Sequence record: NC_007023.1 | Origin: Escherichia phage RB43 | Strand: one strand, 5' to 3' | DNA length: 64,000 bases | Part shown: piece by piece, positions 32,141 to 60,736 of the stretch | Position numbering within the stretch: the stretch's first letter is position 1 | Layout: the number at the start of each line of letters is the position of its first letter | Notes under the pieces: generated by a model | Database searches by the model: none | What the model was told of the DNA's origin: nothing | Seen by the model: only the letters and a program-made list of their open reading frames with translations | Made by a program: the position numbers and the translations under genes

Positions 32141-33184
32141 ATGTTTGTGAAATATTCTTCTCTTACGAACCATTATGAAGGTAAATTCATCAATGGTGTG
32201 ATCATGAATGGTTTGACGGGCGGTGTGTGGGTTGCTCGTGAAAAGATCCACGGTGCTAACTTTAGTCTGATTACTTCTGACGGCGAAAGGGTTATTCCGG
32301 CAAAGCGTAGCGGTGAAATCCTTCCTACTGAACAGTTTTACGGTTGCGAACCTGTTGTTGCCCGATATGCCCCAGCAATCCGCAAACTGTGGGATGTCAT
32401 CAATACCGCACAACAGGTTAGCGGGATTTACGTTGATTCTCTGGTAATTCAGGTGTATGGTGAATTTGCGGGGCGCGGTGTTCAGAAAGATGTTGATTAC
32501 GGTGAAAAAGATTTCTACGTGTTCGATATCCGCGTAAATGGTAAATTCCTGCATGATAACATCGTTGCGGTGTATGCAAAAACTGTTGGCTTGAAAATGG
32601 CCCCGCTGTTAGCATACGGTACTTTTGACGAGATCCGAGCACTTCCGATCACGTTTGATTCAGTGGTTAACCTGGCGAACTCCGGCGCGATTCCTGCACA
32701 TAACGGGGTTGAACCTGAATTCAAAAACTTCATGACGCTGAAAGATGGTGAAGGTGAGAACATCGCAGAAGGTTTTGTTATGAAGCCCGTACACCCTGCT
32801 TTCATGCCGAACGGTGAACGTGTTGCAATTAAATGCAAAACGACGAAGTTTAGCGAGAAGAAAAACAAACAAGCGAACCGCTTCAATGCTCCGGCTGAAC
32901 TGTCGGAAAATGATAAAGTTAAACTGGATGTGTTCACCTGCTACCTGACAGAAAACCGCGTTAAAAACGTCCTGTCTAAAATTGACAGCACGAACCTTAC
33001 CGCGAAAGACTTCGGTCGCGTCATGGGGCTGACTGTACAGGATGCTCTTGAAGAAATCGAACGCAACTACGGACCGTTTATCGAACAGTTTGAAAACCCG
33101 ACGCTGGCGAAGAAAACTTTCACCAACGAAGCCTCAAGCCTGATTCGTACAAACTGGGGCGCAATCCTGAACAATGAATTTTAA
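32141..33184 (+). CDS. rnlB: RNA ligase 2 (RnlB)
   Basis: 347 aa; N-terminus ...KYSSL.NHY..KFI......GLTGG.WVAREKIHG.NFSLI (nucleotidyltransferase Lys motif) and ...KPVHPAFMPNGERVAIKCK..KFSEKK... match T4 Rnl2. Confidence 0.9.
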   Translation: MFVKYSSLTNHYEGKFINGVIMNGLTGGVWVAREKIHGANFSLITSDGERVIPAKRSGEILPTEQFYGCEPVVARYAPAIRKLWDVINTAQQVSGIYVDSLVIQVYGEFAGRGVQKDVDYGEKDFYVFDIRVNGKFLHDNIVAVYAKTVGLKMAPLLAYGTFDEIRALPITFDSVVNLANSGAIPAHNGVEPEFKNFMTLKDGEGENIAEGFVMKPVHPAFMPNGERVAIKCKTTKFSEKKNKQANRFNAPAELSENDKVKLDVFTCYLTENRVKNVLSKIDSTNLTAKDFGRVMGLTVQDALEEIERNYGPFIEQFENPTLAKKTFTNEASSLIRTNWGAILNNEF

Positions 33185-33322
33185 AACTGTTCTCGAAAAC
33201 GCAAAAACGGCTACCCTGATCGGTAGCCGTGAACCCCCCGAACGTATAGCAAACATCGCTATCAAGATCGGACGGCATTAAGTGATCGAGACATTTTAGC
33301 TTATTCTGGTGGTGCTCCTGGA

Positions 33323-33757
33323 ATGGATAGCCATTTCTTGTTTGACTACGCACCAGAAAGACGGCGCATAATTCTCCCTGAAAACGGTTTTAACGGGCTT
33401 TACTCGAATGGTATGGATATCATCGACTATAACGAGTTAGACACGTACAAAGCCGCTGACGAAGCGAGAAAGGTAGCTGGGAACTTCGATTACCAAAATG
33501 AATGGACACAAAGGCGTTATGCGAGAAATGCAGTTCAGATATTGCGCGAAAATTTAGACAGCCCGACTGACTTCGTGTTATTTTGGGCTATCGAAAAGGA
33601 TTTTTGTGTCAAGGGCGGTACGGCTATCGCAACACGCCTTGCACGATTATACGGTGTTCCCAGTTTCAACCTGTGGAAAGAAAACGTATTGAATGATGTT
33701 TGTGATACTTTGGGGATTAATATCAAACCTCCAACTTTGGATTTTCTCTGGTGCTAA
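33323..33757 (+). CDS. SLOG/DprA-like Rossmann-fold protein, 3' portion (conserved 5' part lies in another frame from ATG 33174)
   Basis: ORF from ATG 33323; same frame is open from 33233 (..LAYSGGAPGMDSH); ATG 33174 ORF (MNFKTVLENAKTATLIGSREPP...) ends 33281; together resemble GSR...SGGAxGxD pattern; assignment tentative. Confidence 0.4.
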   Translation: MDSHFLFDYAPERRRIILPENGFNGLYSNGMDIIDYNELDTYKAADEARKVAGNFDYQNEWTQRRYARNAVQILRENLDSPTDFVLFWAIEKDFCVKGGTAIATRLARLYGVPSFNLWKENVLNDVCDTLGINIKPPTLDFLWC

Positions 33758-33823
33758 CTCCCGAACAATCACGTAATTACGAACGCCTCTCAGTTGAAGA
33801 GGCACTTAAAAAGGTTAAGAACA

Positions 33824-34027
33824 ATGGTAGAGATCAACGGAATCGGGGTGAACCCGAACGCATTAATTTCAAAGAACGATCCTCGTTGCGGTCGTAGTCC
33901 TACGCTGGCAGAACGTGCGCGTAAGCTGGTAGAGGAAACAAACGGCAAGATGTTTGAAACATGCCGTGAAGAAATCACCCGCAACATTCTAAGTTTTCCA
34001 ACAAAACAATCATACACGTTGATATGA
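33824..34027 (+). CDS. hypothetical protein
   Basis: 67 aa from ATG 33824 (ORF track has upstream alternative start 33794). Confidence 0.4.
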   Translation: MVEINGIGVNPNALISKNDPRCGRSPTLAERARKLVEETNGKMFETCREEITRNILSFPTKQSYTLI

Positions 34028-34245
34028 AACGTTTTGTTGGTACGACGATGGGGCAAGAATGCACCAAACGTGCGTTTGATATGATCGGGGAATGGCTGAC
34101 CGAAGAAGGTTTAACCTATGAAACCCAAGCGGTAAGAACGTCTGCCGCAATACAATATGCAATGAGTAACCGCCGTATTTCAGGAAACGCCCCTGTAACT
34201 GAAAGAACTGGGTATAGCGAATACACGTATTTCATCACCTGGTAA
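34024..34245 (+). CDS. hypothetical protein
   Basis: 73 aa ORF with ATGA overlap to upstream ORF. Confidence 0.45.
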   Translation: MKRFVGTTMGQECTKRAFDMIGEWLTEEGLTYETQAVRTSAAIQYAMSNRRISGNAPVTERTGYSEYTYFITW

Positions 34246-34264
34246 AAAAGTTTGAAATAGTTGT

Positions 34265-34291
34265 TGACGGGAGTTCTGATTATGATAAGAT
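34265..34291 (+). promoter_or_regulatory. putative sigma70-type early promoter
   Basis: TTGACG, 15-nt spacer, TAAGAT; same TTCTGAT..TAAGAT architecture recurs at 45641-45668. Confidence 0.35.
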
Positions 34292-34332
34292 AGCTCCCGT
34301 AGACAAGACAACTAACCCAGAAGGAAAACATC

Positions 34333-34590
34333 ATGGAAATCAAATTAATCCCTACTTGCGCTGGTTACTGCTTGGCACTGAACGGTGTAGCAAACAACGG
34401 CAAAGGCTTACGGGCTAACGTTGAAGCAATGCTGAATGAACTGGCGTTGCGGAGTGAACCTGGGATGCAGTATGAGTATGATGACGTTGCAACCAGCGTT
34501 AAAATCTCTAATCTGGTGATGAATGGTGTTGACTGTGCGGGTGGTGGGATTGCTACATCGACTATGCAGACAATCGGGTTTTCTTACTGA
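34333..34590 (+). CDS. hypothetical protein
   Basis: 85 aa ORF with RBS AAGGAAAAC. Confidence 0.5.
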   Translation: MEIKLIPTCAGYCLALNGVANNGKGLRANVEAMLNELALRSEPGMQYEYDDVATSVKISNLVMNGVDCAGGGIATSTMQTIGFSY

Positions 34591-34619
34591 CCAGCAACTA
34601 AGGAATGTTATGAAAGATT

Positions 34620-35020
34620 ATATTTCAGAAGCAGAAGCGCTTGAAGAAAGCGGTTTTCAAGTCACCATTGACGATGAAGAAGATGGTGGCTATGATGGCG
34701 GTGTTATGTGGGGGCTTAAACGTCCACAACGTAAAACCCCTGTTCAATATTCTGATGGTTCAGTAAGATACGAAACGGTTGTTAAAGAAGTAAACGGGCG
34801 CGTCATTACGTCCGAACGGCAGAAGGACATTAAACAATTGTATGATGTCGCAAAAGCCGCTAAAGTAGGAACCGAGATTGTTTGTCCGGTGTGCAAAGAG
34901 AAACACAAGAAGACGACCTATCATAAGGTGTTCTGCTCTAATGGCAAAAAATCCAGGAAAGACTGCAAGAGTAAATACTGGAACACGATTCATCCTGAAC
35001 GTTTGGATCGTATCTTTTAA
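34620..35020 (+). CDS. hypothetical protein with CxxC motif
   Basis: 133 aa from ATG 34620 (RBS AAGGAA); CPVCKEK...C; ORF track has longer GTG/TTG version from 34523. Confidence 0.5.
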
Positions 35021-35042
35021 TCAAAACGTGGAGTACGTTTAA

Positions 35043-36473
35043 ATGCAAACTTTTAATGAACTGAATAGCATCATCACCTCAACCGATTCCTACAAAGTGT
35101 CTCACTGGATGCAGTATCCGCAAGGCACTGATGCAGCGATGTTCTATATCGAATCTCGCGGTGGTAAATTTGATGAAGTAGTAACCGCTGGCGTTAACTA
35201 CGTTGCGCGGGTTCTCGCTGAACCAATTACCATGAAGCAGGTTGAGTTAGCGCGGGTACTTTACCGTAAACACTTCGGAAAAGAGATCTTTAACTACGAA
35301 GGGTGGAAAAAGATTGCTGAACTGGGTTACACCCCTGTAATTTTCCGTGCGATCCCAGAAGGTACGGTGTTCCGGGAAAAATGCCGTGCGACTGTGTACG
35401 CCGAAAACGAATTCTCGTGGCTGGCTGGGTGGCTGGAGACAATGACGATTCGCGGTATTTGGTATCCGTCATCTGTAGCAACGCTATCGCGTGAGTGTAA
35501 AAAGGTTCTGGCACACTACCTGGATATGACTTCTGACCTTACTGGCGAAGCATATAACATCACACTGGGTACACGTCTGCATGATTTTGGGGCGCGGGGC
35601 GCGACCTCTGCTGAATCTGCTGGCATTGGTGGGCTGGCACACCTTTATAACTTCATCGGCACTGATACCGTAGAAGGGATGATTATGGCAATCAGCCTCT
35701 TTGCGGATTATCAAACACTGTTTGATGAAGTTGAAAACGTAGAAGTAGCTGGGGTTTCCATCCCTGCTCGTGAGCATTCAACTACGATTTCCTACGGTAA
35801 AGAAAACGAAGACGAAGCATATAAAAACAGCATTGAAATGTTCGGTGATGGGTTCTACGCTTGCGTATACGATTCATGGGACTACAAAGCCGCTGTTGAC
35901 CGGATCGATAGTTATAAAGAGAAAATCATTGCATCTGGCGGTGTGTTGGTAGTGCGTCCAGACTCAGGGGATATGATAGACAACATCATGTACACCTTGC
36001 GCAAACTGGGGCAAATCTTCGGATATACTGTCAACTCCAAAGGGTACAAAGTTCTTCATAACTCTGTTCGTATCATCCAGGGTGACGAGATCCACGGGCC
36101 TGAAACAATCAACCGTGTATTAAGCTGGATGGAAGCGAACAAATGGTCGAGCGAAAACATTGCGTTCGGTATGGGTGGCGGTTTGCTGCAAGAAGTTACC
36201 CGCGATACCCAGAAATATGCTGAAAAACTTTGCGCTATCCGTATCAACGGTGTGTGGAAAGGCGTTTACAAATGCCCGAAAGGTTCGGAATGGAAAAAGA
36301 GCAAGAAAGGTTTATTGATGACCATCACTAACGGGATGGAATTCAAGACAATCGATTCTCTCGAAGAATCTATTCCTGCTGGGTGGTTTGATGCGATGGT
36401 AACTTATTATGACAATGGTTATCTGAACAAAACTGACACTTTAGGGGAAATTCGTGAGCGTAGCCGGATTTAA
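35043..36473 (+). CDS. nadV: nicotinamide phosphoribosyltransferase (NadV/NAMPT family)
   Basis: 476 aa; N-terminal ...TDSYKVSHW...YPQGT..., GTRLHDFGARGATS, IRPDSGD, RIIQGDEI, FGMGGGLLQ motifs typical of NAMPT/NAPRTase family. Confidence 0.8.
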   Translation: MQTFNELNSIITSTDSYKVSHWMQYPQGTDAAMFYIESRGGKFDEVVTAGVNYVARVLAEPITMKQVELARVLYRKHFGKEIFNYEGWKKIAELGYTPVIFRAIPEGTVFREKCRATVYAENEFSWLAGWLETMTIRGIWYPSSVATLSRECKKVLAHYLDMTSDLTGEAYNITLGTRLHDFGARGATSAESAGIGGLAHLYNFIGTDTVEGMIMAISLFADYQTLFDEVENVEVAGVSIPAREHSTTISYGKENEDEAYKNSIEMFGDGFYACVYDSWDYKAAVDRIDSYKEKIIASGGVLVVRPDSGDMIDNIMYTLRKLGQIFGYTVNSKGYKVLHNSVRIIQGDEIHGPETINRVLSWMEANKWSSENIAFGMGGGLLQEVTRDTQKYAEKLCAIRINGVWKGVYKCPKGSEWKKSKKGLLMTITNGMEFKTIDSLEESIPAGWFDAMVTYYDNGYLNKTDTLGEIRERSRI

Positions 36474-36762
36474 TATCCGCGCCAACGATAACGGATCTGT
36501 AATCTTCTATAACAATCAGCCCCTTGTTGCTCGCAAGGGGCTTTTTTGTAAGTTAGTTGGGTATGGGTTCAAGTTGGAACAGGTGGATAATGCAACACTA
36601 AAAGAGATCGTGCGCATAGCCTATCTCCTGAAAGATAAGAAAGATGAACATAAGGCGGTTGCAATGCTGGAGAAATTGGGAGAAAATCATTGCTTCATCA
36701 TAAATCGTGGATACAAATACGATACAATCGCTTTATTTGAAAAAGGGCTTAGTGAACTATGA
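36454..36762 (+). CDS. hypothetical protein (GTG start)
   Basis: 102-aa ORF; SD AGGGGA 5 nt upstream of GTG; overlaps 3' end of nadV. Confidence 0.4.
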   Translation: MSVAGFNIRANDNGSVIFYNNQPLVARKGLFCKLVGYGFKLEQVDNATLKEIVRIAYLLKDKKDEHKAVAMLEKLGENHCFIINRGYKYDTIALFEKGLSEL

Positions 36763-37610: not shown

Positions 37611-37616
37611 GTTAAC

Positions 37617-41347: not shown

Positions 41348-41674
41348 ATGTACTGGACAAAAGACAAATTCGTGTTTCGTGATGATGAAAGTTTTGGCAC
41401 GGTATACCGAAATTTAGCTTTGCGTGGTAGTGCTTTATCACCAAATCAACTATCGTCTGTTGTAATGCCGATAAAGGTTACTCACTGTGACCGTTTTGGT
41501 GTCAATGGTCTTGTTGATTCCGCTGGCACTTCCTGGTATTCGAACTGTTCTTATCTGTTAGACAACAACGATCGTGATCTCTTCAAGAAAGCTGTCCCAG
41601 TTGTTAAGAAGTCAAGAATCTGGATGTTCAAAACTTCTGGACTGTGCGCATCTTCTGGGACGAGTTTACGTTAA
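41348..41674 (+). CDS. hypothetical protein
   Basis: 108 aa from ATG 41348; 3' end overlaps next ORF by about 100 nt in a different frame. Confidence 0.45.
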   Translation: MYWTKDKFVFRDDESFGTVYRNLALRGSALSPNQLSSVVMPIKVTHCDRFGVNGLVDSAGTSWYSNCSYLLDNNDRDLFKKAVPVVKKSRIWMFKTSGLCASSGTSLR

Positions 41675-41825
41675 TGGAAAACTGGTCACAAAACAGGGTG
41701 ATCTTGAAAAATATCTTCGTAAACAACGTGAAGTTGCGTTGAAAGAAACAGAAAAAACAGTCAATCGGTTGACCAAATCGTTAGCCGAAGAAACAAAAAA
41801 TCTGAAACTGTTACGGGGTGAATGA
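41574..41825 (+). CDS. hypothetical protein (GTG start, no obvious RBS; may be continuation of previous ORF via +1 shift)
   Basis: 83-codon frame, protein-like from ...YVNGKLVTKQGDLEKYLRKQREV...; no in-frame ATG. Confidence 0.3.
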   Translation: MISSRKLSQLLRSQESGCSKLLDCAHLLGRVYVNGKLVTKQGDLEKYLRKQREVALKETEKTVNRLTKSLAEETKNLKLLRGE

Positions 41826-42064
41826 TGTTTCCATTAAAAGCGCGTGTTCGCAACAAAACAGGAACACAGGAATGGATGGAATGTATACGGGAAACAAAAC
41901 ATTTCTACATTTCTCAGGCAGTGGACAACAACGGAAAGAACATCCGTTATAATAAAGTTGGTGGTAAACGTGTGGGTATGGATCAATATCTCCAGGTTGG
42001 TACTGTTCGGCCTGTCAACGTTCCATTTGATTTAAGAATTCCTAACGGTAAACCTGTGATATGA
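41822..42064 (+). CDS. hypothetical protein
   Basis: 80 aa, ATGA overlaps with flanking ORFs. Confidence 0.5.
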   Translation: MMFPLKARVRNKTGTQEWMECIRETKHFYISQAVDNNGKNIRYNKVGGKRVGMDQYLQVGTVRPVNVPFDLRIPNGKPVI

Positions 42065-42570
42065 TCGGGAAAATCCTTGATATCCTGTTTCCCTCCCGTG
42101 TACGTGAGCGGGAGAAACAACAACAATTCGACGACATGTTAGAAGAAGTTATGTTCAATTCTTTTATGATGTGGAAGAAAAAACGCGAAGACGAGAAGCA
42201 CCCAAACGCACAAATGGCAAAGGGTGTTTCTAAATGCGCGGTTGGTCGTTACTGGGTTGAAAAAGATTATATTGATCTGATAGGCGCTATAGCTCCTGGG
42301 GTAACGCTGGAAGACTTTTCCCGTGCAACGGGGCGTTCGTATACTGGCTGCATCAATCGTCTGCGTATGCTGTCTATAGTGGTGCGTAGCAAGAATTACG
42401 GATATCGTGATGTTATCCGTCCGGTGATTCCGGTAAGCCGATTAAAAATTCACACGGCTAACGGAAAAAGACTTGACCTGACGGATGAAATGTGTAGAAT
42501 AGGCTATATCAGAGAGGGGAAAGTGTTAAAAGCCCCTGAATGGCTCACTAAACAATTTGAAATAAGGTAA
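42061..42570 (+). CDS. hypothetical protein
   Basis: 169 aa ORF, start overlapping previous stop. Confidence 0.5.
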   Translation: MIGKILDILFPSRVREREKQQQFDDMLEEVMFNSFMMWKKKREDEKHPNAQMAKGVSKCAVGRYWVEKDYIDLIGAIAPGVTLEDFSRATGRSYTGCINRLRMLSIVVRSKNYGYRDVIRPVIPVSRLKIHTANGKRLDLTDEMCRIGYIREGKVLKAPEWLTKQFEIR

Positions 42571-42574
42571 TCAC

Positions 42575-43167
42575 ATGATTAAGAAAATATTTTCGTTCCT
42601 CAACAACAAAGTAGAAACCGTCATCGAGCAAAACACCTCCCCAGAGGACGCATGGCGTAGCGCTGCACGTATCCTGATCAAGAGATTGACCGTCTGCAAC
42701 ATACCCGCATCACGGCTGCTCATGAGATCGCGAAACTAAGCAAAAAAGTTGTTGAGCACAAAGCTCTGCATGAAAGCAAAGAAGCAGAAATCAAAAAACT
42801 GCTGGCTGCTTCTCAGGAAGTTTCAAACAGTCATTACATTCTGGCACTGCAACACCGCAATATCTGGCAGGGGTTGAAAGAAAAGATCAATGAACTGGCA
42901 GAAATGAACAAACAGATCGATCTGTCTGTTGTTGAACTCGATAAAAAACTGGCTGATGTCAAAATGAACCTGGAAATTATCGAACTGAACAAACAGACTG
43001 AAAGCCTGGGTCTGACTGTGCCGGAAGATGTGATTGCAAGCGTGGGTCATACCTCCGTGAACGTCGATACTATCGTAACGAAGATTGATGTTCTGCTGGG
43101 TGGTAAGAACGCCGCCTCCGTGACTTCCGCTGATGTAAGTGCATACATCGAAGCCCTGAAAGCATAA
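42575..43167 (+). pseudogene. coiled-coil protein gene with apparent -1 frameshift about 35 codons in (5' part 42575-42739 in one frame, remainder open 42661-43167 in the -1 frame)
   Basis: ATG 42575 ORF stops at 42739; -1 frame has no start until TTG 42874 yet encodes protein-like helix ...QEIDRLQHTRITAAHEIAKLSKKVVEH... from 42661. Confidence 0.4.
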
Positions 43168-43173
43168 TGAGGA

Positions 43174-43193
43174 AGGGGCGCAAGCCCCTTTTT
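43174..43193 (+). terminator. rho-independent terminator
   Basis: AGGGGCGCAAGCCCCT hairpin followed by TTTTT. Confidence 0.65.
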
Positions 43194-43197
43194 GCCT

Positions 43198-43395
43198 ATG
43201 TATTATATTGAGCGTGATGAATTCGATAATTACTTTGTTGTTGATACTGTCCGTATGATTCATGAACCTCTGCCGTTGACTTGGTACTATTTGACCGAAT
43301 CTAAAAGGAAGAGATCGCGAATCAAGTTTACAGAGATGCGCTGTATGCGAAAACCGATATCAAAAGCGCGGCAATACAATCCAAATGTGAATTGA
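43198..43395 (+). CDS. hypothetical protein
   Basis: 65 aa from ATG 43198. Confidence 0.4.
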   Translation: MYYIERDEFDNYFVVDTVRMIHEPLPLTWYYLTESKRKRSRIKFTEMRCMRKPISKARQYNPNVN

Positions 43396-44117
43396 TGAAA
43401 GCCCAAACAACAATCAATGTTAGTAGACTTCTTGTTGATGGCAATCAACCGTTTGGTTATAATTGTATAGAAGATGCTTATACAAAAGAGGATGAAAAAA
43501 TGATGTGGGAACCTGGATTATCTGAACCGAAAAAGAAATTGTCCTATTCTTCTTGGAAAGAAAAGTACAAAGAACCTTTACAACACCTTCCGTTCAAAGA
43601 AAAGATCTTTGAGTTGCTTAATCCACATACGTATTCTTCTTCGTCATGGGTGTATGAAGGTCCGATCCTCGTCGGTGGATTTCTGGGGTATGTTGTTGAA
43701 ACATATAAATTGAAAGATTCTCTTGATGCTATCATGAGTTCTCCGTACATTGAAGATGTTAGTATTCCATACATCGCTACATCACAATACAGCGCACCGG
43801 GTAATATATCTTCGGATCGTTTGCAAGTTATCGCCTCTGATAATAAGTTTAAGTTTTCTGATGTATCGAGAGGTAGCAGAACTGTACTGATTGCTCTTGA
43901 CATAACAACTTCTGATCAGGACAAAGTAAACCTTATCATTGCATGTGATAGTGTAACTGACGTTACTCAATATTTTGGCGATAATTTCGAACGCAGACTG
44001 AAAGCAAAACAGCTTGAAAAGTTCATTCATAGCTGTAAAAAGAACGTGATGGAAAAATATGATCCGTCACTATCATACACGAAAATTGATGATGACCTGG
44101 TAGGTGAATTATGTTAA
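43395..44117 (+). CDS. hypothetical protein (noticeably AT-rich relative to neighbours)
   Basis: 240 aa from ATG 43395; Lys/Ser-rich; composition differs from flanking genes. Confidence 0.5.
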   Translation: MKAQTTINVSRLLVDGNQPFGYNCIEDAYTKEDEKMMWEPGLSEPKKKLSYSSWKEKYKEPLQHLPFKEKIFELLNPHTYSSSSWVYEGPILVGGFLGYVVETYKLKDSLDAIMSSPYIEDVSIPYIATSQYSAPGNISSDRLQVIASDNKFKFSDVSRGSRTVLIALDITTSDQDKVNLIIACDSVTDVTQYFGDNFERRLKAKQLEKFIHSCKKNVMEKYDPSLSYTKIDDDLVGELC

Positions 44118-44392
44118 TGAATAGTGCTCAATGCAAAGCCCTGAACTTTTTGATCCATGAACTGATTGAATGCGACATTCCTTTTGAGTTCGTTGATCCA
44201 ATCAATTCAGAACACCGCGTTTCTCTTTTCTGGGCTTCTGGTGATAGCAGTATCGACGCGGTGAATAACATCGTTGAACGCGCACAGAAGGATAATGTTA
44301 TTGTGATGATTGGTAGCGTTAACGCCTCCACCTGGAACAATGCTGATGCGTATTTCATCGGATACAAAAAACCGTTGACAGTGAAAGCATGA
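44111..44392 (+). CDS. hypothetical protein
   Basis: 93 aa ORF overlapping previous stop. Confidence 0.5.
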   Translation: MLMNSAQCKALNFLIHELIECDIPFEFVDPINSEHRVSLFWASGDSSIDAVNNIVERAQKDNVIVMIGSVNASTWNNADAYFIGYKKPLTVKA

Positions 44393-44627: not shown

Positions 44628-45154
44628 TTCAGCTTACATCATACACCAACGCGATCAACAGCCTGTTCCCAGAAGGGACAGAAGCACGGCTTAATTTACA
44701 GGCTGCTGTGATCAAAAACATCGTTGATAGCGTTGTCGGTAAGAAGGTGACGGAAGAAATCGATAACTGTATTGTCACCCATGTTAGCGCGATGATGCCA
44801 CCAAAGCATGAGATCGAAAAGATTGTTCAAAATCAATTTGCCGATTACATTCAGAAACGCTACACATACAGCAATGTGTTTGATGCTAATTACAGTGGCA
44901 TTCGTCAGATTAAAGACGTGATCACCGAAAACGTTAAACAGCAATGCGCTAACCTGATTGAATCTATCAAACTTGATGCGATCGACAGCGCAAGCAAAAA
45001 CCTCAAAGAAGGCGAAGAAGCGTTTATTGCTCGTGTAACCAAAAATCTAGAAGTGACGGTTCGTAAAGAAATCATCGCTCGCGTGAACACCCAGTTCCCG
45101 CAAATCATCGACGAAGCAATCAAAGCCCGTCTGTTCCCAGAGGATAAAGGCTGA
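44624..45154 (+). CDS. hypothetical protein
   Basis: 176 aa ORF, ATGA overlaps on both sides. Confidence 0.5.
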   Translation: MIQLTSYTNAINSLFPEGTEARLNLQAAVIKNIVDSVVGKKVTEEIDNCIVTHVSAMMPPKHEIEKIVQNQFADYIQKRYTYSNVFDANYSGIRQIKDVITENVKQQCANLIESIKLDAIDSASKNLKEGEEAFIARVTKNLEVTVRKEIIARVNTQFPQIIDEAIKARLFPEDKG

Positions 45155-45600
45155 TGAACTTTGACCGCATCTATAACATGGATGTGGTCAACGGTAAAGG
45201 AATCCGTGTGGTGTTGTTTGTAACCGGATGCAATCATAAGTGTGATGGTTGCTACAACAAAAGCACATGGAATCCACGCAACGGTAAACCGTATACCGAA
45301 GAGACTGAAAACGAGTTGATCAGACTCCTTTCAAATCCTCATGTGGACGGATTGACGCTTACAGGTGGCGATCCGTTTTACCGCACCAATCATCCTGTAC
45401 TGTTAAAACTGCTCCAGCGCGTCCGTAACGAGTTGCCTGGTAAGAATGTATGGGTTTGGACGGGGTACACCCTCGAAGCCTTACAGAGTGATACAGAACG
45501 TTGTAAGCTACTTCCTTTTATCGATGTTCTGATCGATGGGAAGTATGAAAAGATTTACCGACTAAGAAACCGTTTCGCGGTTCGGACAATCAGCGATTGA
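45154..45600 (+). CDS. nrdG: anaerobic ribonucleotide reductase activating protein NrdG (radical SAM)
   Basis: 148 aa; ...DRIY..D.VNG.G.RVVLFVTGC.HKC.GCYN.STWN.RNG......LTLTGGDP...WTGY...IDGKYEK... matches T4 NrdG with CxxxCxxC cluster motif. Confidence 0.9.
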   Translation: MNFDRIYNMDVVNGKGIRVVLFVTGCNHKCDGCYNKSTWNPRNGKPYTEETENELIRLLSNPHVDGLTLTGGDPFYRTNHPVLLKLLQRVRNELPGKNVWVWTGYTLEALQSDTERCKLLPFIDVLIDGKYEKIYRLRNRFAVRTISD

Positions 45601-54700: not shown

Positions 54701-54773
54701 CATAAATACAGTCATTATAGGAGAATTTTATGGCTGATTTGAAATTAGGCACAACGTTAGGTGGTGCTGCTAT

Positions 54774-57002
54774 TTGGAGTGCTTCGAATCTCCGTTATTG
54801 CCGTCAGGTGGACAAATAACGTATAAAGGCTGGCGTATCTATACCGAAAATGATCGCCCGACAGCGGAAGATATAGGGGCGTTGTCTCTTGCTAATGGTG
54901 GTACTGTTAACAATGATACGACATTCACGAAAAATATAACCGTAGGCGTTAATGCTGTTGCGGGTGCATTGTTTTCTAGATCGTACATCGATATTACTCG
55001 CGCCGGAAGTGAACCAAACATTGTTTTTCGTCGTTCTGATGTTACTACTACGCCGACGACAGAACAAGCCCTTTTAATACTTAATGCTATGAATGGGGCT
55101 AACGTTACTGCGGGTACGTTTAATATTCATGCGCGTACTGATGGCGGGAACAAAGTTTATATTACTGCGTATAAATCGGGATCACAAAATACATCATTAA
55201 CGCTAGATTCGCAACTTCAACAGGTAACGGTAGAACAAGGCACTTTCCGTGTCACTGGAAATACTGTTCTTGCTGGTGCAACTGCAACCACGTTAAACGT
55301 TACTGGGGCGTTGACTGCACAAACGGTTACTCCGGCGAACTGGCAAAATCACGATGTTCGTTATATGACGGGTATTCCGACCAACATGCAGGGAAATAGC
55401 CTAAGCGCTGCTGTTGTTACCGAAAAGAATGATGTTCTTTCCGTAAACGGTAACTTGGTTGATGGTCCTTATGGCGATAATACCTACGTGGGCCAGGTGG
55501 TAAACTATCGCCGCACGTCGAATGCGAGCAACTCGATCACTCAGTTCTTCCTTGATGGTACTGCTTTCCATATCCGTACAGGTTCTGGATCTCCTGGTGC
55601 TTGGTCTTGGACGGGTGGAGGTGCTAACGGTTGGCGTAAAGTGTATGATGAAAGTCACAAACCTACTCCGGCAGAAATCGGTGCATTGAAAAATACTACC
55701 GATACATTGAACGGTGAATTGGGTGTTATCGGTGATGTTTCTTTAAAATCACCTACAGGTCGTCATATTAAATTCGTGTATACGAAAAATGATGGTACTC
55801 AGATTGTTGATGGGTTTATCTACAAAGACGGACCTGATGCTGGTAATCGTCGTTCCGGTATTCGCATTAACTGTTATACGCCGAATAAAGAAACTGGTAA
55901 TGGGGAGTTTTCCGGTGAATTCATTTTCAACGAAAATGGTAGCTTTATTCTTCCTCCTGGCGGCACAATATATCAGGAAGGTATAACACCAGGTCTTTAC
56001 GCAAACGTTATATTAAGTGCCGCTGCTGCTGGTACTACATCATACCTTCGTAAATTCCGAGGTGGTGGCCCTGATACAATATGGCATGAGGCAGTTCGAT
56101 CTAACGTATACGCTTTGGGAACTGGCGCGACATATTCAAATGAAGTAATGACTCTCGATGACACTGGTAATCTGTCTATCAAAGGAACCCCGTCAACATC
56201 AACGAACGTTTTCCTGGATAGTGACGCAAAATCTGTTATTTGGTTTAGACATTCCGGCGGTGCGGAAAAAGGCGTTGTGTGGGCAGAGAGTGATGGTAAA
56301 TTAAAATTACGCGCAAATGCTGGCGGTTCTGCTACTTATGAGTTTTATGCTGGTATGATACACTCACAATACCCCGTATCAGGTACAGATCGCGGTATTA
56401 TTCGCGGTACTCCTGATGGGGGTGGTTGGGATCAATGGCGTGAACGTTCTGCTGCTGTATCTGTTGATGTTCCCGGTGTCAATAATAGCGCATACAGTAT
56501 CTGGAAAGCAACTTCATGGAATAACACCTATGTTGCTGCAATTGGATGTTCATATGCCCGAACTTTACACCAGGCGCCGGCCCGTGTTCGTCTGGTTCTG
56601 CAAAGTTCTGTTGCTTTCTACTTCGATGGTGATGGTAGCTTTAGTACAAGTACAGGGAACATCACGGCAGGTAATAGTGGTTACTTTAACGATGTGTATA
56701 TTCGTTCTGATGAAAAATTGAAAAGCAATTTCAATAAGATTGAAAACGCATTGGATAAGGTTGAACTGTTGAATGGTTTGACTTATGATAAAGCAAGCTA
56801 TATCGGTGGCGAAACTGTTAAGCGCGAAGCTGGTTTGATCGCACAGGAACTGCAAAAGGTATTACCGGAAGCCGTATCTGTTGGTAAGGATACCAAAGAA
56901 AACGAAGTGCTTGTTATTTCGCCAACTGCAACTATTGCATTACTGGTCGAAGCAATCAAAGAACTGCGTGAAGAAGTAAGGGAACTCAAATCCCGACAAT
57001 AA
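54774..57002 (+). CDS. long tail fibre distal subunit paralogue A (gp36/gp37-like) with C-terminal intramolecular chaperone domain; conserved N-terminus is in another frame from ATG 54730
   Basis: ORF track start is TTG 54774; upstream ATG 54730 frame encodes MADLKLGTTLGGAAIWSASN (gp36-type N-terminus) then stops 54819; body has GG.PDTIWHEAVR and C-terminal ...DVYIRSDEKLKSNF...GREAGLIAQELQKVLPEAV (S74-type chaperone). Confidence 0.7.
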   Translation: MECFESPLLPSGGQITYKGWRIYTENDRPTAEDIGALSLANGGTVNNDTTFTKNITVGVNAVAGALFSRSYIDITRAGSEPNIVFRRSDVTTTPTTEQALLILNAMNGANVTAGTFNIHARTDGGNKVYITAYKSGSQNTSLTLDSQLQQVTVEQGTFRVTGNTVLAGATATTLNVTGALTAQTVTPANWQNHDVRYMTGIPTNMQGNSLSAAVVTEKNDVLSVNGNLVDGPYGDNTYVGQVVNYRRTSNASNSITQFFLDGTAFHIRTGSGSPGAWSWTGGGANGWRKVYDESHKPTPAEIGALKNTTDTLNGELGVIGDVSLKSPTGRHIKFVYTKNDGTQIVDGFIYKDGPDAGNRRSGIRINCYTPNKETGNGEFSGEFIFNENGSFILPPGGTIYQEGITPGLYANVILSAAAAGTTSYLRKFRGGGPDTIWHEAVRSNVYALGTGATYSNEVMTLDDTGNLSIKGTPSTSTNVFLDSDAKSVIWFRHSGGAEKGVVWAESDGKLKLRANAGGSATYEFYAGMIHSQYPVSGTDRGIIRGTPDGGGWDQWRERSAAVSVDVPGVNNSAYSIWKATSWNNTYVAAIGCSYARTLHQAPARVRLVLQSSVAFYFDGDGSFSTSTGNITAGNSGYFNDVYIRSDEKLKSNFNKIENALDKVELLNGLTYDKASYIGGETVKREAGLIAQELQKVLPEAVSVGKDTKENEVLVISPTATIALLVEAIKELREEVRELKSRQ

Positions 57003-57003
57003 G

Positions 57004-57030
57004 AAAAGCCCTTCGGGGCTTTTTCTTTTT
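57004..57030 (+). terminator. rho-independent terminator
   Basis: AGCCCTTCGGGGCT hairpin followed by TTTTCTTTTT. Confidence 0.65.
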
Positions 57031-57037
57031 ATAAATA
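57030..57037 (+). promoter_or_regulatory. T4-type late promoter -10 box (TATAAATA) upstream of second distal-fibre gene
   Basis: Exact TATAAATA 27 nt upstream of ATG 57064. Confidence 0.5.
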
Positions 57038-57063
57038 TCATAAAAGCATTTGAGGATCTAATA

Positions 57064-59502
57064 ATGGCAGATTTAAAATCCGGTACTACCATAGGCGGTA
57101 ATACTATCTGGAGTCAGGCTAATTTGCCTTTACTCCCTACTGGAAACACACTAACGTATAAAGGCTTCAAAGTCTATACGGAAAATGATAAGCCTACAAA
57201 AGCTGAAATAGGATTAGGTAACGTTACCAACGACGCACAGGTCAAAAAATCCGGCGATGAAATGACGGGTGATCTGACACTAAAGAACAATACTCAGTTA
57301 ACGGTTCCTCGCCGTATTAACCTGATTGCTGATACTGCGGGGAATGCTCCTTATCTGTTAACTACTCGTTCAGATAACAACGCGGTTACAGATCCGTTCC
57401 CGTCACAGCATACTCGCACGTTTACTTTGTTTGTCAACACAAAATCGAATACTTCCGATCCTTTTGGTGGTGCTAACCTTGCTGCTCTATTATCGCATCA
57501 GTCAACTACTGGGGCAGGTTCTATCGAACTGCAAGCATATGATGCACCAAACAAGACAACAGGCGCTACGGGAATTCTACGCGCTCAGATTGGGCTTAAT
57601 GGGTGGGATGGTTCAATTAACCTTTCCGGTGCTTCGTTAAACGTTGGTATGAGTACAACGGTCAGTGGTAACTTAACAGGAACCCAACTGATCACAAAAG
57701 GCGACGGAAACCGTAACGTCGAATTCCGTGATGCTGGCGGTAACGAATTAGCAATGATATTTGCTGATACTGGTAAAAACTTATATGTTCGTTCAGGTGG
57801 TTCTTATGTAACACGTTTCGCTGCTGATGGTACTCTTATTCTGGCAAACGGTTTGACCGCACCACGTCAAATTTTTGTTAATGGTGCTGGATTGCCAGCA
57901 AACAACAGCTTGATTCGACTTGATACAAGCACTGATGGAAACGCCTCTGGTGACGGCGCAACGCATCTTGGTGTGAAAGCTGATGATGGGAAATTTTATC
58001 ATTATTTCCGTGGTGCTGGTACGATGTTCATCGACGTGAAAGGTGGAATATCTTCTTCAACCCCGTTGTATATGAATGGAGTTGATCAGGCATTACCCAA
58101 AATTGAAATGTTGTCAACTGGTGCGGCTGGCGGTAAAAACTTACTACGTCGATTCCGTGGTGGTCTTCCTGATATTATATGGCATGAAACTGTTCAGCAG
58201 GGTGAATATAAGCTGATGACGGGTAACACCGATAGTGAAATGCAACTATGGGTTAGTGCTAGTGGTGCTGGTCGAGGTGGTGCAATTTACGGTGGTACGT
58301 TTACGGCTGATCGCGGTAATGATGGATTCAAGATCCGTTATAAACCTGCAACAGAATCAGCAATGTTCCAGATATGGAACAGAGATACGAGTGTATTGAA
58401 CTCTTATTTCGGATACGGGTCAAGTAATCAGGCAACAATTAACCTGTATAACCGATTAGGTGATATTGCTGTTTCTACTCCGAACGCTGCGTTCCGGTTA
58501 GATAATACTTTATTAACGCTTGGTAGTTCATCGTCAGCACAAGCCAGTAGTCAAACATTCTATATCCAAAACTGGGGTAATTCTGGTCGTCCTGCTGTGT
58601 TTGAAGTACATGATGATACGGGTTATCATTTTTATTCACAACGAATGCCTAATGGAAACGTAGAATTTCAAACTTCTGGCAATCTGACCGTCAGTAACGG
58701 CGCATACATTTATGGCGGCAATGGCCTAGAAATTCGTTCTAATGGAAACCGTCATGTATGGTTTAAAGATAACGCAGGTAGTGAAAAGGTTGTTATTTAC
58801 GCCGAAGATGATGGCGGGTTGAAAATCCGTACTACGAGTCAGCAATATTCAACTCGTTTTGGTGACGGCATGATTCTAACTACAGGTGCTGCAACCACTG
58901 GAGGTGATAAAGGTTTACTCCGTGGTACTGTTCAGGGTGGTGCGTGGGTCGCATGGCGTGACCGTGCTGCTGGGTTGTTGGTGGATTGTCCTAACTCCAG
59001 AAACGAAGCATACAGCATCTGGAAAGCTACACACTGGGGCGATCAGCATATTGCCGCAATGGATGTCTATGCGGGTGGCGGCAATCCAGTTGTAGTTATG
59101 CACGTTGGTGGTGCTGATTTTTCCTTCGACAATGGTGGTCAATTCAAAGCCAGTGGTTATATTTACTCAGGGGCACATGGTGATTTTAACGATGTGTATA
59201 TTCGTTCTGATATCAGGCTGAAATCTAACCTAGTTGAACTGAAAGATGCACTGAGTAAAGTCGAACAGCTTAAAGGTTATATCTACGATAAGAAACTGAA
59301 AGTCGAAGATGATGAACCTAATGGTCGTGAAGCGGGTATTATTGCTCAGGATCTTCAAAAGGTTTTACCGGAAGCAGTAAGAGAAAACGAAGAAACCGGA
59401 ATGTTGACGATCTCCCCGTCAAGTGTTAACGCGCTTCTGATTACGGCAATCAATGAATTGCGTGAACGTCTGGAAGCAATCGAACGGAAAATAGGGGCGT
59501 AA
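57064..59502 (+). CDS. long tail fibre distal subunit paralogue B (gp36/gp37-like) with C-terminal intramolecular chaperone domain
   Basis: 812 aa; N-terminus MADLKSGTTIGGNTIWSQANLPLLPTGNTLTYKGFKVYTEN matches T4 gp36 N-terminus; GGKNLLRRFRGGLPDIIWHETVQ and ETVFEVHDDTGYHFYSQR like T4 gp37; C-terminal DVYIRSDIRLKSN...GREAGIIAQDLQKVLPEAV chaperone domain. Confidence 0.8.
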   Translation: MADLKSGTTIGGNTIWSQANLPLLPTGNTLTYKGFKVYTENDKPTKAEIGLGNVTNDAQVKKSGDEMTGDLTLKNNTQLTVPRRINLIADTAGNAPYLLTTRSDNNAVTDPFPSQHTRTFTLFVNTKSNTSDPFGGANLAALLSHQSTTGAGSIELQAYDAPNKTTGATGILRAQIGLNGWDGSINLSGASLNVGMSTTVSGNLTGTQLITKGDGNRNVEFRDAGGNELAMIFADTGKNLYVRSGGSYVTRFAADGTLILANGLTAPRQIFVNGAGLPANNSLIRLDTSTDGNASGDGATHLGVKADDGKFYHYFRGAGTMFIDVKGGISSSTPLYMNGVDQALPKIEMLSTGAAGGKNLLRRFRGGLPDIIWHETVQQGEYKLMTGNTDSEMQLWVSASGAGRGGAIYGGTFTADRGNDGFKIRYKPATESAMFQIWNRDTSVLNSYFGYGSSNQATINLYNRLGDIAVSTPNAAFRLDNTLLTLGSSSSAQASSQTFYIQNWGNSGRPAVFEVHDDTGYHFYSQRMPNGNVEFQTSGNLTVSNGAYIYGGNGLEIRSNGNRHVWFKDNAGSEKVVIYAEDDGGLKIRTTSQQYSTRFGDGMILTTGAATTGGDKGLLRGTVQGGAWVAWRDRAAGLLVDCPNSRNEAYSIWKATHWGDQHIAAMDVYAGGGNPVVVMHVGGADFSFDNGGQFKASGYIYSGAHGDFNDVYIRSDIRLKSNLVELKDALSKVEQLKGYIYDKKLKVEDDEPNGREAGIIAQDLQKVLPEAVRENEETGMLTISPSSVNALLITAINELRERLEAIERKIGA

Positions 59503-59513
59503 TGCCCCTCTTT
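59494..59513 (+). terminator. hairpin terminator overlapping stop
   Basis: GGGGCGTAATGCCCC followed by TCTTT. Confidence 0.45.
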
Positions 59514-59527
59514 AAAGAGGTAAAATT

Positions 59528-60052
59528 ATGGCAATTGTTGGAGTACCCGGATGGATCGGGTCGTCTGCGGTAGCAGAAACAGGACAGCGTTGGATGTCTG
59601 CGGCGGGTAGCGCTGTTCGAATTGGTGCGCCTTTCTGGATGTCCCAAATGGCAAACCAATCAGTATATAATATTTCAATACCAATATTCGAACGATATTA
59701 TAAAGGTATTCGTTATCGTGGTTGTTGGAATACTGGATGGAATCTCCCTTTATCTAAACCTGGTTGGAACGCTACTCCTGGTGGTAGTTTTAACGGGCTG
59801 GCTTACGGGACTTGTGTTGCAGTGCAAAACTATCTCGATGGTGAATATAGCGTATTAACTATTCAAAGTGGTCCTGCTGCAAACTTTCGACTCACTACTG
59901 ATGACGGTGCGGTGTTTAACTTTATTGATACCGGACGATATGACGCAGGATATCGAAACTACAAAATCGATCCTAGTCAACATGTGGCATGGTTCGACTA
60001 CCTTAATGCTCGTATAGGACAAACAAGACAAGGACTAGTTGCTATAAGATAA
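59528..60052 (+). CDS. 38: gp38-like tail fibre adhesin/assembly protein
   Basis: 174 aa; N-terminus MAIVGVPGWIGSSAVAETGQRWMSAAGSAVRIG matches T4 gp38 N-terminus; no glycine-rich segments. Confidence 0.8.
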   Translation: MAIVGVPGWIGSSAVAETGQRWMSAAGSAVRIGAPFWMSQMANQSVYNISIPIFERYYKGIRYRGCWNTGWNLPLSKPGWNATPGGSFNGLAYGTCVAVQNYLDGEYSVLTIQSGPAANFRLTTDDGAVFNFIDTGRYDAGYRNYKIDPSQHVAWFDYLNARIGQTRQGLVAIR

Positions 60053-60112
60053 ATATGTTCGGGGGTTGGGAATCCCCGACCGAGGGTATAAAATGGCGCT
60101 ATACAAGATAAA

Positions 60113-60736
60113 TTGGCTGTGCTTGAACGGGTAATGTCGTTCATCATGGCGGTCAAAACGTGGAAACAGCTTTTCATCAAATTGATTCTTATCGTAACAA
60201 TTTTCATTATGTTTATTACATGGTACAAATGGGATGACCTGTTTGCAGTATGGAAATCATCTTCGAGCGTGATCGATGTTCCCACAATGGAGATCGAAAA
60301 AGCAAAAAAGTTTGAATCCGCATCCATTGAACAGTTAAACATAGTGCATTTAACTACGGGTGCGGATTTTTCGGCAGTCTTTGGGTTCAGACCTAATAAT
60401 GTCAATTATTTTGTTGATATAATTGCGTATGAAGGGAAGTTACCGCAACAGATTGATCCGAAAAATCTGGGTGGCTATCCTATAGATAAGACATCGGAAG
60501 AATACAACAGACATATAAACGGGCTACCGTATATCTCAGATATCGCAAGCCCGTACCTTCCGACAAAAAATCTTGTTCCGGTAGTCTACACCTTTAGTTG
60601 TCCTTACTTCAATCTCGAAAACTACTATTCAGGATCAATCTTAATGGAATGGTATAAACAGAAGCCCGAAGTCACCGACATGAAGTTAATGATCGTGTGC
60701 AATCAGGCCGCTAGAATTTTAGGCAGGATTCGATGA
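60113..60736 (+). CDS. t: holin (t), lysis inhibition-type; true start uncertain (TTG 60113, ATG 60134, or ATG 60093 with frame change)
   Basis: ...ESASIEQLNIVHLTTGADFSAVFGFRPNNVNYFVDIIAYEGKLP...LGGYPIDKT...SCPYFNLENYYSGSI...QAARILGR matches T4 holin T; conserved residues (DKLAVLERV) extend upstream of first canonical start. Confidence 0.85.
   Translation: MAVLERVMSFIMAVKTWKQLFIKLILIVTIFIMFITWYKWDDLFAVWKSSSSVIDVPTMEIEKAKKFESASIEQLNIVHLTTGADFSAVFGFRPNNVNYFVDIIAYEGKLPQQIDPKNLGGYPIDKTSEEYNRHINGLPYISDIASPYLPTKNLVPVVYTFSCPYFNLENYYSGSILMEWYKQKPEVTDMKLMIVCNQAARILGRIR

What the first reader, a model, noticed from the sequence alone, without database searches (positions are those of the whole stretch)
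33174..60140. Recurring pattern: four genes have conserved 5' ends one nucleotide out of frame (-1) from the gene body, all within the first ~35 codons
(a) Holin t: ATG 60093 is in frame 0, but the conserved body (NGAIQDKLAVLERV..., matching the T4 holin N-terminal region) is in the -1 frame from 60095, at a GG run. (b) Tail fibre A at 54792 (CC run). (c) SLOG/DprA-like gene: the ATG 33174 frame (..LIGSREPPERIANIAIKIGRH stop) and the -1 frame open from 33233 (..LAYSGGAPGMDSHF..) overlap around a C6 run at 33234-33239. (d) Coiled-coil gene: the ATG 42575 frame ends at 42739 while the -1 frame carries the remaining ~165 codons from 42661. All four are consistent with a missing base (or -1 ribosomal slippage), while the long structural genes are intact. 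This is either a systematic homopolymer under-call in the assembly or genuine early frameshifts that attenuate or regulate expression. A fifth, +1 case may exist at 41574-41674.
Basis: partly seen in the sequence, partly recalled or inferred. Interest (0 to 1): 0.55.

Follow-up and report, generated by a model that had tools for sequence, protein, structure and literature searches.

The report
Sequencing errors in RB43 reference genome
The "early frameshifts" are real in this sequence, but they are single-base errors private to the old public genome record of phage RB43; every other sequence of the same phage and of its relatives has the base that keeps each gene in one frame, so this is an artefact and not gene regulation.

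Summary
The window is the last 64 kb of the public phage RB43 genome (NC_007023/AY967407). Its oddly truncated ORFs match that record's annotated proteins exactly. All four frame breaks and the "fifth" case exist.

I compared the window base by base with Illumina-sequenced RB43-GVA. I also used an independent Toulouse record of RB43 (AY266307) and three related phages (RB16, Miller, GuL6).

- The window carries 23 single-base indels (16 bases missing, 7 extra). At every one, all other sequences that have the region agree against the window.
- Fifteen of the 19 substitutions are also private to the window, and 12 of those are transversions. RB43-GVA has only two private changes.
- Twelve genes are frameshifted, not four. 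The sites lie anywhere from codon 4 to the third-last codon of a gene.
- Three further genes (tail sheath gp18, NAMPT, tail fibre gp36-37.1) carry compensated triple indels that scramble residues invariant in the relatives.
- None of the four upstream mini-ORFs contains a slippery heptamer.

Verdict: these are base-calling errors in a 2005 shotgun/PCR-closed record. They are not programmed frameshifting or attenuation. The interest is low, beyond flagging a faulty reference whose annotation appears to have been copied into other records.

The parts
60093..60736 (+). Holin gene t. One T is missing after 60101 (CTA^TAC, codon 4 of 214). The true N-terminus is MALLQDKLAVLERV.
   Evidence: RB43-GVA, AY266307, RB16, Miller and GuL6 all read CTATTAC. 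Relatives annotate a 213-214 aa holin.
54730..57002 (+). Distal long tail fibre gene gp36-37.1. One T is missing after 54790 (ATC^TCC, codon 21 of 756). Three extra bases at 56542, 56557 and 56577 are net in frame and scramble 12 aa.
   Evidence: AY266307 (independent Toulouse record), GVA, Miller and GuL6 agree against the window at all four positions.
33174..33757 (+). DprA-like gene (the public record annotates only the 144-aa tail, RB43ORF250w). One T is missing after 33274 (GGACG^GCATT, codon 34 of 194). The C6 run at 33234-33239 is unchanged.
   Evidence: There is a 194-aa single ORF in GVA, RB16, GuL6 and Miller.
42575..43167 (+). Coiled-coil gene of unknown function. One A is missing after 42679 (ATC^AAG, codon 36 of 197).
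   Evidence: The gene is an intact 594-nt ORF in GVA, Miller and GuL6.
41348..41825 (+). A 159-aa gene is broken by two missing A's after 41605 and 41629 (codons 87 and 95). The public record annotates the 108-aa stump as RB43ORF263w.
   Evidence: ORF263w is a singleton cluster among 15 billion proteins.
43198..44117 (+). A 306-aa gene is broken by a missing A after 43302 (codon 36). The stump is annotated as RB43ORF267w (65 aa).
33824..34245 (+). A 140-aa gene split into RB43ORF251w (67 aa) and RB43ORF252w (73 aa) by a missing T after 34018.
34333..34590 (+). RB43ORF253w. A missing T after 34541 (codon 70 of 89) gives 85 aa instead of 89.
   Evidence: Nearly all other listed cluster members are 89 aa (11 of 14).
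45154..45600 (+). nrdG. A missing A after 45547 (codon 132 of 163) gives 148 aa instead of 163.
   Evidence: All 14 other listed cluster members are 163 aa.
20538..21860 (+). gp24 capsid vertex gene. A missing C after 21825 (codon 430 of 432) gives 440 aa instead of 432.
30320..30421 (+). A 105-aa gene truncated to 33 aa by an extra G at 30393 (codon 25).
12556..14550 (+). gp18 tail sheath. Extra bases at 12993, 12999 and 13059 are net in frame. The invariant segment SEKIVARAKQIGTYPDISTGW reads KRKKSLLVLNRSVLTQIFLLVG.
   Evidence: The window protein is 664 aa. Thirteen of the 14 other listed cluster members are 663 aa, and one is annotated at 669 aa.
35043..36474 (+). Nicotinamide phosphoribosyltransferase gene. 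Three missing T's after 35368, 35375 and 35386 are net in frame. VVPVKNAVA reads VFREK-CRA.
60719..60993 (-). A 91-aa gene on the minus strand, broken by a missing base after 60864 (codon 44).
62581..62810 (-). A 76-aa gene on the minus strand, broken by a missing base in a T6 run after 62700 (codon 37).

Best explanation
The window is the 3' 64 kb of the 2005 public genome record of coliphage RB43 (NC_007023/AY967407). The frame breaks are base-calling or finishing errors in that record: 16 dropped bases, 7 spurious bases and about 15 miscalled bases. They concentrate in a stretch rich in small 'novel' ORFs. The original authors said that regions containing such ORFs were poorly represented in their shotgun plasmid libraries and were only identified by PCR gap closure.

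The real phage encodes each of these genes as one uninterrupted ORF. The apparent 5' bias probably arises in part because a frameshift near a gene end leaves a near-full-length ORF. Such an error escapes both the original finishers and a reader scanning for ORFs. Errors in the middle of recognisable genes survive only where three of them happen to restore the frame.

Shown here: the window is identical to the public record's proteins. Every indel is private to the window. The relatives have intact ORFs. There are no slippery sites.

Inferred: the cause is technical and not mutation in the sequenced stock, and low read coverage explains the clustering.
For: 1. Identity of the record. Nine aberrant window ORFs are exact matches to proteins of the 180,500-bp RB43 record: ORF250w, gp24 at 440 aa, NrdG at 148 aa, ORF251w, 252w, 253w, 263w and 267w, and gp18 at 664 aa.

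2. Comparison with RB43-GVA. The whole window is 99.9% identical to Illumina-sequenced RB43-GVA, with 23 one-base indels and 19 substitutions. At all 23 indel sites, GVA and every available outgroup (RB16, Miller, GuL6) agree against the window. The independent Toulouse record AY266307 also agrees against the window at all 5 indels it covers, including the holin and tail-fibre sites. AY266307 shares the wild-type gp38 Gln100 with the window.

3. Asymmetry. There are 38 window-private changes against 2 GVA-private changes. Both GVA-private changes are transitions, and one is the published host-range change at gp38 residue 100. Window-private substitutions are 12 transversions to 3 transitions.

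4. Scrambled conserved segments. Compensated triple indels scramble segments that are invariant in four other phages, in the essential tail sheath and in NAMPT and gp36-37.1.

5. Uniqueness of the products. The frameshifted products are unique. ORF263w, 267w and 252w are singleton clusters. RB43 gp24 and NrdG are the odd lengths among 106-121 cluster members.

6. Clustering by type and place. Six consecutive losses of a T directly 3' of G lie at 33274-35386. Five consecutive A-run under-calls lie at 41605-45547 (runs test p=0.036). Twelve indels and all 15 private substitutions lie in 26-46 kb.

7. Literature. Perrody et al. 2012 report that two Illumina RB43 genomes share 106 differences from the published sequence (PMC3486835). 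Nolan et al. 2006 say novel-ORF regions were under-represented in shotgun libraries and recovered by PCR gap closure (PMC1524935).

8. No slippery sites. None of the four upstream ORFs contains a canonical X_XXY_YYZ heptamer.
Against: No raw reads or traces of the original project were available, so real mutations in the DNA preparation that was sequenced cannot be excluded site by site.

The three indel clusters that each sum to exactly three bases are unexpected for purely random error. They need the extra assumption that finishers accepted only frame-preserving versions of recognisable genes.

The published comparison (PMC3486835) reports the differences without calling them errors.

The GVA genome may have been assembled by mapping to the published sequence, which makes it weaker evidence for repeat copy number, though not for small indels.
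Confidence: 0.93

Rival explanations
1. These are genuine mutations in the sequenced stock. On this view, the laboratory lineage of RB43 sequenced in 2005 really carried these frameshifts, as pseudogenes or restart-dependent genes accumulated during propagation.
For: The window keeps the ancestral gp38 Gln100, so it is a separate lineage from RB43-GVA. Many affected genes are small accessory ORFs that could be dispensable. Twenty-one of the 23 indels are run-length changes, which is also the spectrum of polymerase slippage.
Against: This would require 23 indels and 15 mostly transversion substitutions in 64 kb in one lineage, against 2 transitions in the sister lineage that was propagated separately for about 20 years (PMC3157838). 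The hits include the holin at codon 4 with no Shine-Dalgarno-preceded restart, NrdG, gp24 and a tail-fibre gene. A 22-aa invariant tail-sheath segment is scrambled. The Toulouse parent stock sequence AY266307 lacks all 5 indels in the region it covers.
Confidence: 0.04
2. This is programmed -1 ribosomal frameshifting or transcriptional slippage. On this view, the short 5' ORFs are real and full-length protein is made by recoding, which attenuates expression.
For: All four focal cases need a -1 shift. All four have 40-79 nt of overlap between the two open frames. A C6 run lies in the DprA-like overlap.
Against: The arrangement is absent from every relative, including two other sequences of the same phage. 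No X_XXY_YYZ heptamer is present. The conserved protein sequence follows frame 0 exactly up to the missing base and then frame -1. For example, ERIANIAIKIGR downstream of the C6 run is still in frame 0, so a slip at C6 would not give the conserved protein. The same window also has +1 indels, a double -1, and 3'-terminal shifts that no recoding model explains.
Confidence: 0.01
3. The errors lie in the other records. On this view, RB43-GVA and the relatives were 'polished' or assembled so as to close ORFs, and the window is correct.
For: RB43-GVA may have been assembled by mapping to the published genome (PMC3486835 speaks of 'approximately 99% coverage').
Against: Mapping to the published reference would bias GVA towards the window's bases, not away from them. 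Five independent projects on different platforms and in different years (AY266307 in 2003, RB16, Miller, GuL6, GVA) agree with each other at every site. Cluster members from many further phages and metagenome assemblies have the GVA-type protein lengths.
Confidence: 0.01

Closest known systems
Interrupted coding sequences caused by sequencing errors in early shotgun genome records (for example the Mycobacterium smegmatis ICDS study, PMC1852416, and the Treponema pallidum resequencing, PMC3769245; both seen only as search results and not read)
   Same: One-base indels private to a single deposited record split or truncate genes that are intact in resequenced isolates and relatives. The fragments are annotated as separate 'hypothetical' ORFs.
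   Different: Nothing essential differs. Here the evidence is comparative (two resequenced genomes, one independent partial record, three relatives) and not a re-reading of the original traces.
Programmed -1 ribosomal frameshifting in phage genes (for example the tail-assembly chaperone G/GT-type sites, and the X_XXY_YYZ motifs analysed in PMC4066793, which was seen only in the search list)
   Same: There are two overlapping open frames, with the downstream part in -1.
   Different: There is no slippery heptamer, no conservation of the two-frame arrangement, and no alternative product conserved in relatives. The relatives encode a single ORF.
Published comparison of RB43 (Geneva, Illumina; HE858210 and HE981739) with the published RB43 genome (Perrody et al. 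2012, PMC3486835)
   Same: That paper reports at least 107 nucleotide differences genome-wide. The 42 point differences found here in 64 kb (35% of the genome) are in proportion to that count.
   Different: That paper neither polarises the differences nor lists their effect on genes. The outgroup comparison here assigns nearly all of them to the published record.

Membership tests
Programmed -1 ribosomal frameshift site | A slippery heptamer X_XXY_YYZ (or at least Z_ZZN) in the 0 frame within the overlap of the two ORFs | tested here: not met
   None of the four upstream ORFs contains a heptamer. Only isolated tetramers occur (AAAT, TTTG, CCCC), and none coincides with the point where the conserved protein changes frame.
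Programmed -1 ribosomal frameshift site | The two-frame arrangement is conserved in homologous genes of related genomes | tested here: not met
   There is a single ORF in RB43-GVA, AY266307, RB16, Miller and GuL6 at every site.
Programmed -1 ribosomal frameshift site | A trans-frame protein product is detected | not testable with these tools
   This needs proteomics or ribosome profiling.
Sequencing or base-calling error in a deposited record | The variant is private to one record and absent from independent sequences of the same organism | tested here: met
   All 23 indels are absent from HE858210.2. The holin and DprA-like sites were also checked in HE981739. The 5 indels covered by AY266307 are absent there too.
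Sequencing or base-calling error in a deposited record | Outgroups carry the alternative state, so the variant is derived in the suspect record | tested here: met
   23 of 23 indels; 15 of 19 substitutions.
Sequencing or base-calling error in a deposited record | The change spectrum is atypical of natural divergence (excess of indels and transversions, disruption of essential or conserved sequence) | tested here: met
   There are 23 indels to 15 substitutions, and 12 transversions to 3 transitions. Invariant gp18, NAMPT and gp36-37.1 segments are scrambled. The holin is shifted at codon 4.
Sequencing or base-calling error in a deposited record | Raw reads or traces show the correct base or low quality at the site | not testable with these tools
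   The original traces were not available.
Genuine pseudogenisation in the sequenced stock | The same alleles are recovered on resequencing the stock or in its parent stock | tested here: not met
   The Toulouse RB43 record AY266307, which shares gp38 Gln100 with the window, lacks the window's 5 indels at 54790-60101. The other sites are not covered by that record.

The most novel reading that the evidence does not exclude
A minority of the window-private differences could be real features of the RB43 lineage sequenced in 2005. The main candidates are the perfect 4.1-copy 87-nt tandem repeat in the inh (prohead-protease inhibitor) gene and perhaps one or two frameshifts in dispensable accessory ORFs. 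That would make this lineage a natural knock-out set for those genes. Nothing in the evidence supports recoding.
Probability: 0.05. Interest if true: 0.25.

Novelty: not a real feature. Interest (0 to 1): 0.07.

Why it matters
There is no new biology here. The practical point is curation. The RB43 reference record (NC_007023) carries at least 23 indel errors and about 15 substitution errors in its last 64 kb.

- These errors split or truncate 12 genes and corrupt three more. They produce spurious ORFs that count as separate genes: ORF251w and ORF252w are halves of one gene, and ORF263w and ORF267w are stumps.
- They yield aberrant reference proteins for gp18, gp24, NrdG, the holin and a tail fibre.
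- The mis-annotation appears to have spread. Miller and IME-CF2 annotate the DprA-like gene as the 144-aa fragment, although Miller's 194-aa ORF is intact. IME-CF2's ORF was not checked.

Anyone using RB43 as a type genome for Pseudotevenvirus should use HE858210 instead.

Tried and rejected
- I scanned the four upstream mini-ORFs for -1 slippery heptamers and tetramers. There were no heptamers, and the tetramers do not coincide with the frame switch.
- I tested whether frameshift positions are biased to gene 5' ends. They are not (KS p=0.48, 13 sites).
All are identical in RB43-GVA, and the missing bases lie elsewhere.
- I looked for a paper that explicitly calls the published RB43 sequence erroneous. 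I found only the count of at least 107 differences (PMC3486835) and the library-representation remark (PMC1524935). The spanin paper (PMC6139136) mentions RB43 and sequencing errors only in unrelated passages.
- I tried to find how the public record annotates the holin and the tail-fibre 5' ends by exact look-up of candidate products. Neither holin candidate tried (TTG 60113, ATG 60134) nor the 29-aa tail-fibre 5' mini-ORF (54730-54816) is in the collection. The downstream tail-fibre starts were not looked up. The annotated starts of these two genes remain unknown.
- I did not use structure prediction, Rfam or remote-homology searches, because they could not bear on the question.
Full report
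**What is in the sequence**

ORF listings and the raw sequence confirm the four frame breaks.
- Holin t: ATG 60093, frame-0 stop at 60132, 207-codon body in the -1 frame.
- Distal tail fibre gp36-37.1: ATG 54730, stop at 54817, 742-codon body in -1.
- DprA-like gene: ATG 33174, stop at 33279, body in -1, with the longest conventional ORF at 33323-33757.
- Coiled-coil gene: ATG 42575, stop at 42737, remainder in -1.
- The suspected fifth case (41324/41348-41674 and 41574-41825) is also there.

**What the window is**

A megablast of two of the regions finds Pseudotevenvirus RB43 records HE858210.2 and HE981739.1 at 99.9% identity. In both regions 901 window bases align to 902 record bases.

Exact-sequence look-ups show that the odd ORFs of the window are the annotated proteins of the 180,500-bp public RB43 record (AAX78xxx / YP_239xxx, i.e. 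AY967407/NC_007023):
- RB43ORF250w, the 144-aa tail of the DprA-like gene;
- gp24 at 440 aa;
- NrdG at 148 aa;
- ORF251w, 252w, 253w, 263w and 267w;
- gp18 at 664 aa.

The alignment to RB43-GVA ends exactly at the end of both sequences. The window is therefore most likely the last 64 kb of that record (inference).

**Base-by-base comparison**

Against HE858210.2 the window shows 19 substitutions and 23 single-base indels: 16 bases missing in the window and 7 extra. It also has three additional copies of an 87-nt tandem unit.

- Holin: T missing after 60101 (CTA^TAC).
- Tail fibre: T missing after 54790 (ATC^TCC).
- DprA-like: T missing after 33274 (GGACG^GCATT).
- Coiled-coil: A missing after 42679 (ATC^AAG).
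- Fifth case: two A's missing, after 41605 and 41629. This is why it looked like a +1 shift.

**Polarity of the differences**

I fetched the homologous 50 kb of RB16, Miller and GuL6, and the independent 5.5-kb Toulouse record of RB43 (AY266307), which covers gp36-37.1, gp36-37.2, gp38 and the start of t.

At all 23 indel positions, every sequence that has the region agrees with RB43-GVA and against the window. AY266307 covers five of the indels, including the tail-fibre and holin sites. It lacks all five, while sharing the wild-type gp38 Gln100 (CAA) with the window. So a sequence of the non-Geneva lineage also has the intact frames.

Of the 19 substitutions, 15 are private to the window (12 transversions, 3 transitions) and 2 are private to GVA. 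Both GVA-private changes are transitions. One lies in gp38 codon 100, the published host-range position (PMC3157838). Two substitutions are undecided.

The tally is 38 private changes in the window lineage against 2 in its sister. The indel-to-substitution ratio is 23:15.

**Consequences for genes**

Mapping the sites onto the RB43-GVA CDSs, all of which are free of internal stops, shows 12 genes with uncompensated shifts.

| Gene | Shifted at codon |
|---|---|
| gp24 | 430 of 432 |
| 105-aa ORF | 25 |
| DprA-like | 34 of 194 |
| 140-aa ORF | 66 |
| 89-aa ORF | 70 |
| 159-aa ORF | 87 and 95 |
| Coiled-coil | 36 of 197 |
| 306-aa ORF | 36 |
| NrdG | 132 of 163 |
| gp36-37.1 | 21 of 756 |
| Holin t | 4 of 214 |
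| Minus-strand ORF (91 aa) | 44 |
| Minus-strand ORF (76 aa) | 37 |

(The 159-aa ORF carries two sites, hence 13 sites in 12 genes.)

Relative positions run from 0.02 to 1.0 and do not differ from a uniform distribution (KS p=0.48). The '5' end within 35 codons' pattern comes from which cases are easy to see.

Three further clusters of three same-sign indels restore the frame but scramble residues that are identical in GVA, RB16, Miller and GuL6.
- Tail sheath: SEKIVARAKQIGTYPDISTGW becomes KRKKSLLVLNRSVLTQIFLLVG.
- NAMPT: VVPVKNAVA becomes VFREK-CRA.
- gp36-37.1: MDVHMPNFTPGA becomes IGCSYARTLHQAP.

The frameshifted products are unique in a 15-billion-protein collection. ORF252w, 263w and 267w are singleton clusters. 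RB43 gp24 and NrdG are the only odd lengths listed among clusters of 121 and 106 members.

**Recoding test**

None of the four upstream ORFs contains an X_XXY_YYZ heptamer. The conserved protein sequence follows frame 0 right up to the missing base and frame -1 immediately after. For example, in the 194-aa Miller, RB16, GuL6 and GVA proteins...REPPERIANIAIKIGR|ALSDRDI... switches at 33274 and not at the C6 run. No relative has the two-ORF arrangement.

**Why an artefact and not real mutation**

1. The spectrum is wrong for natural divergence: excess indels, a 4:1 transversion-to-transition ratio, and 38 versus 2 private changes.
2. The damage falls on essential functions: the holin at codon 4, the tail sheath, gp24 and NrdG.
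3. The five covered indels are absent from the Toulouse parent-stock sequence.
4. The errors cluster by type and place. Six consecutive losses of a T immediately 3' of G lie at 33274-35386 (chance about 0.001 given that 33% of T-runs follow G). Five consecutive A-run under-calls lie at 41605-45547 (runs test p=0.036). Six substitutions fall within 87 nt at 44556-44642. Twelve indels and all 15 private substitutions lie in 26-46 kb.

That stretch is rich in small 'novel' ORFs. [quoted passage not shown] The link to low coverage is my inference.

Perrody et al. reported that two Illumina RB43 genomes share 106 differences from the published sequence (PMC3486835). The 42 point differences in this 35% of the genome fit that count.

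**What remains unproven**

I had no traces or reads of the original project. Mutation in the sequenced DNA preparation therefore cannot be excluded for each individual site.

The three exactly frame-restoring triplets need an extra assumption: that finishers resolved ambiguous calls so as to keep recognisable long ORFs open. That same assumption would explain why uncompensated shifts in recognisable genes survive only near gene ends (holin codon 4, tail fibre codon 21, gp24 codon 430, NrdG codon 132).

**Comparison with known things**

This is the classic 'interrupted coding sequence' artefact of early shotgun genomes. It is not a programmed frameshift, because two defining features were tested and not met. 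It is not a new kind of regulation.

**Verdict**

The positions of the shifts were mis-assigned, and the 5' pattern is an ascertainment effect. Novelty: not a real feature. Interest is about 0.07, limited to reference-genome curation and to the likely spread of the truncated annotation. For example, Miller annotates the DprA-like gene as 435 nt although its 585-nt ORF is intact.

Noticed in passing
window 25143-25501 (+), inside the inh (prohead protease inhibitor / minor head protein) gene: There is a perfect 87-nt (29-codon) tandem repeat with 4.1 copies at 100% identity. RB43-GVA has 1.1 copies. The inh genes of RB16, Miller and GuL6 are 654-660 nt, so the window's gene is 261 nt longer. 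This could be a real in-frame expansion in the sequenced stock or an assembly or cloning artefact. A short-read GVA assembly could also have collapsed the repeat.
   Followed up: partly
L007 (Citrobacter phage Miller NC_025414.1) 20536-21120; also IME-CF2 AKR16073.1: Miller and IME-CF2 annotate the DprA-like gene as the 144-aa fragment, the same as RB43ORF250w. Miller's full 194-aa ORF starting at the rnlB stop overlap is intact. The truncated RB43 annotation appears to have been copied into later records.
   Followed up: partly
window 59825-59827 (gp38 codon 100); L004 and L002: gp38 codon 100 is CAA (Gln) in the window and in AY266307, CGA (Arg) in HE858210.2 ('wild type'), and AAA (Lys) in HE981739.1 (orf057::gfp). 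Perrody et al. 2012 state the opposite assignment (Lys in the wild type, Arg in the mutant), so either the records or the text are swapped.
   Followed up: partly
L005 (AY266307.1) 3606-5059, corresponding to window 58299-59752 (gp36-37.2 and gp38): The Toulouse partial record differs from both the window and RB43-GVA at 12 positions. These include a cluster at 58299-58319 and gp38 codon 75 (TTC Phe against TTA Leu). Either it has its own errors, or it comes from a slightly different (RB42-like) stock.
   Followed up: no
window 44556-44642: Six window-private substitutions fall within 87 nt, spanning the junction of two small ORFs (GVA 160270-160461 and 160458-160988). This looks like a low-quality read end and will alter the predicted residues of both proteins in the public record.
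   Followed up: no
window 33824-34245: The public record's RB43ORF251w (67 aa) and RB43ORF252w (73 aa) are two halves of one 140-142-aa gene that is conserved in RB16, GuL6, KKP_3664 and RB43-GVA. RB43's published count of 'novel ORFs' is inflated by such splits.
   Followed up: yes
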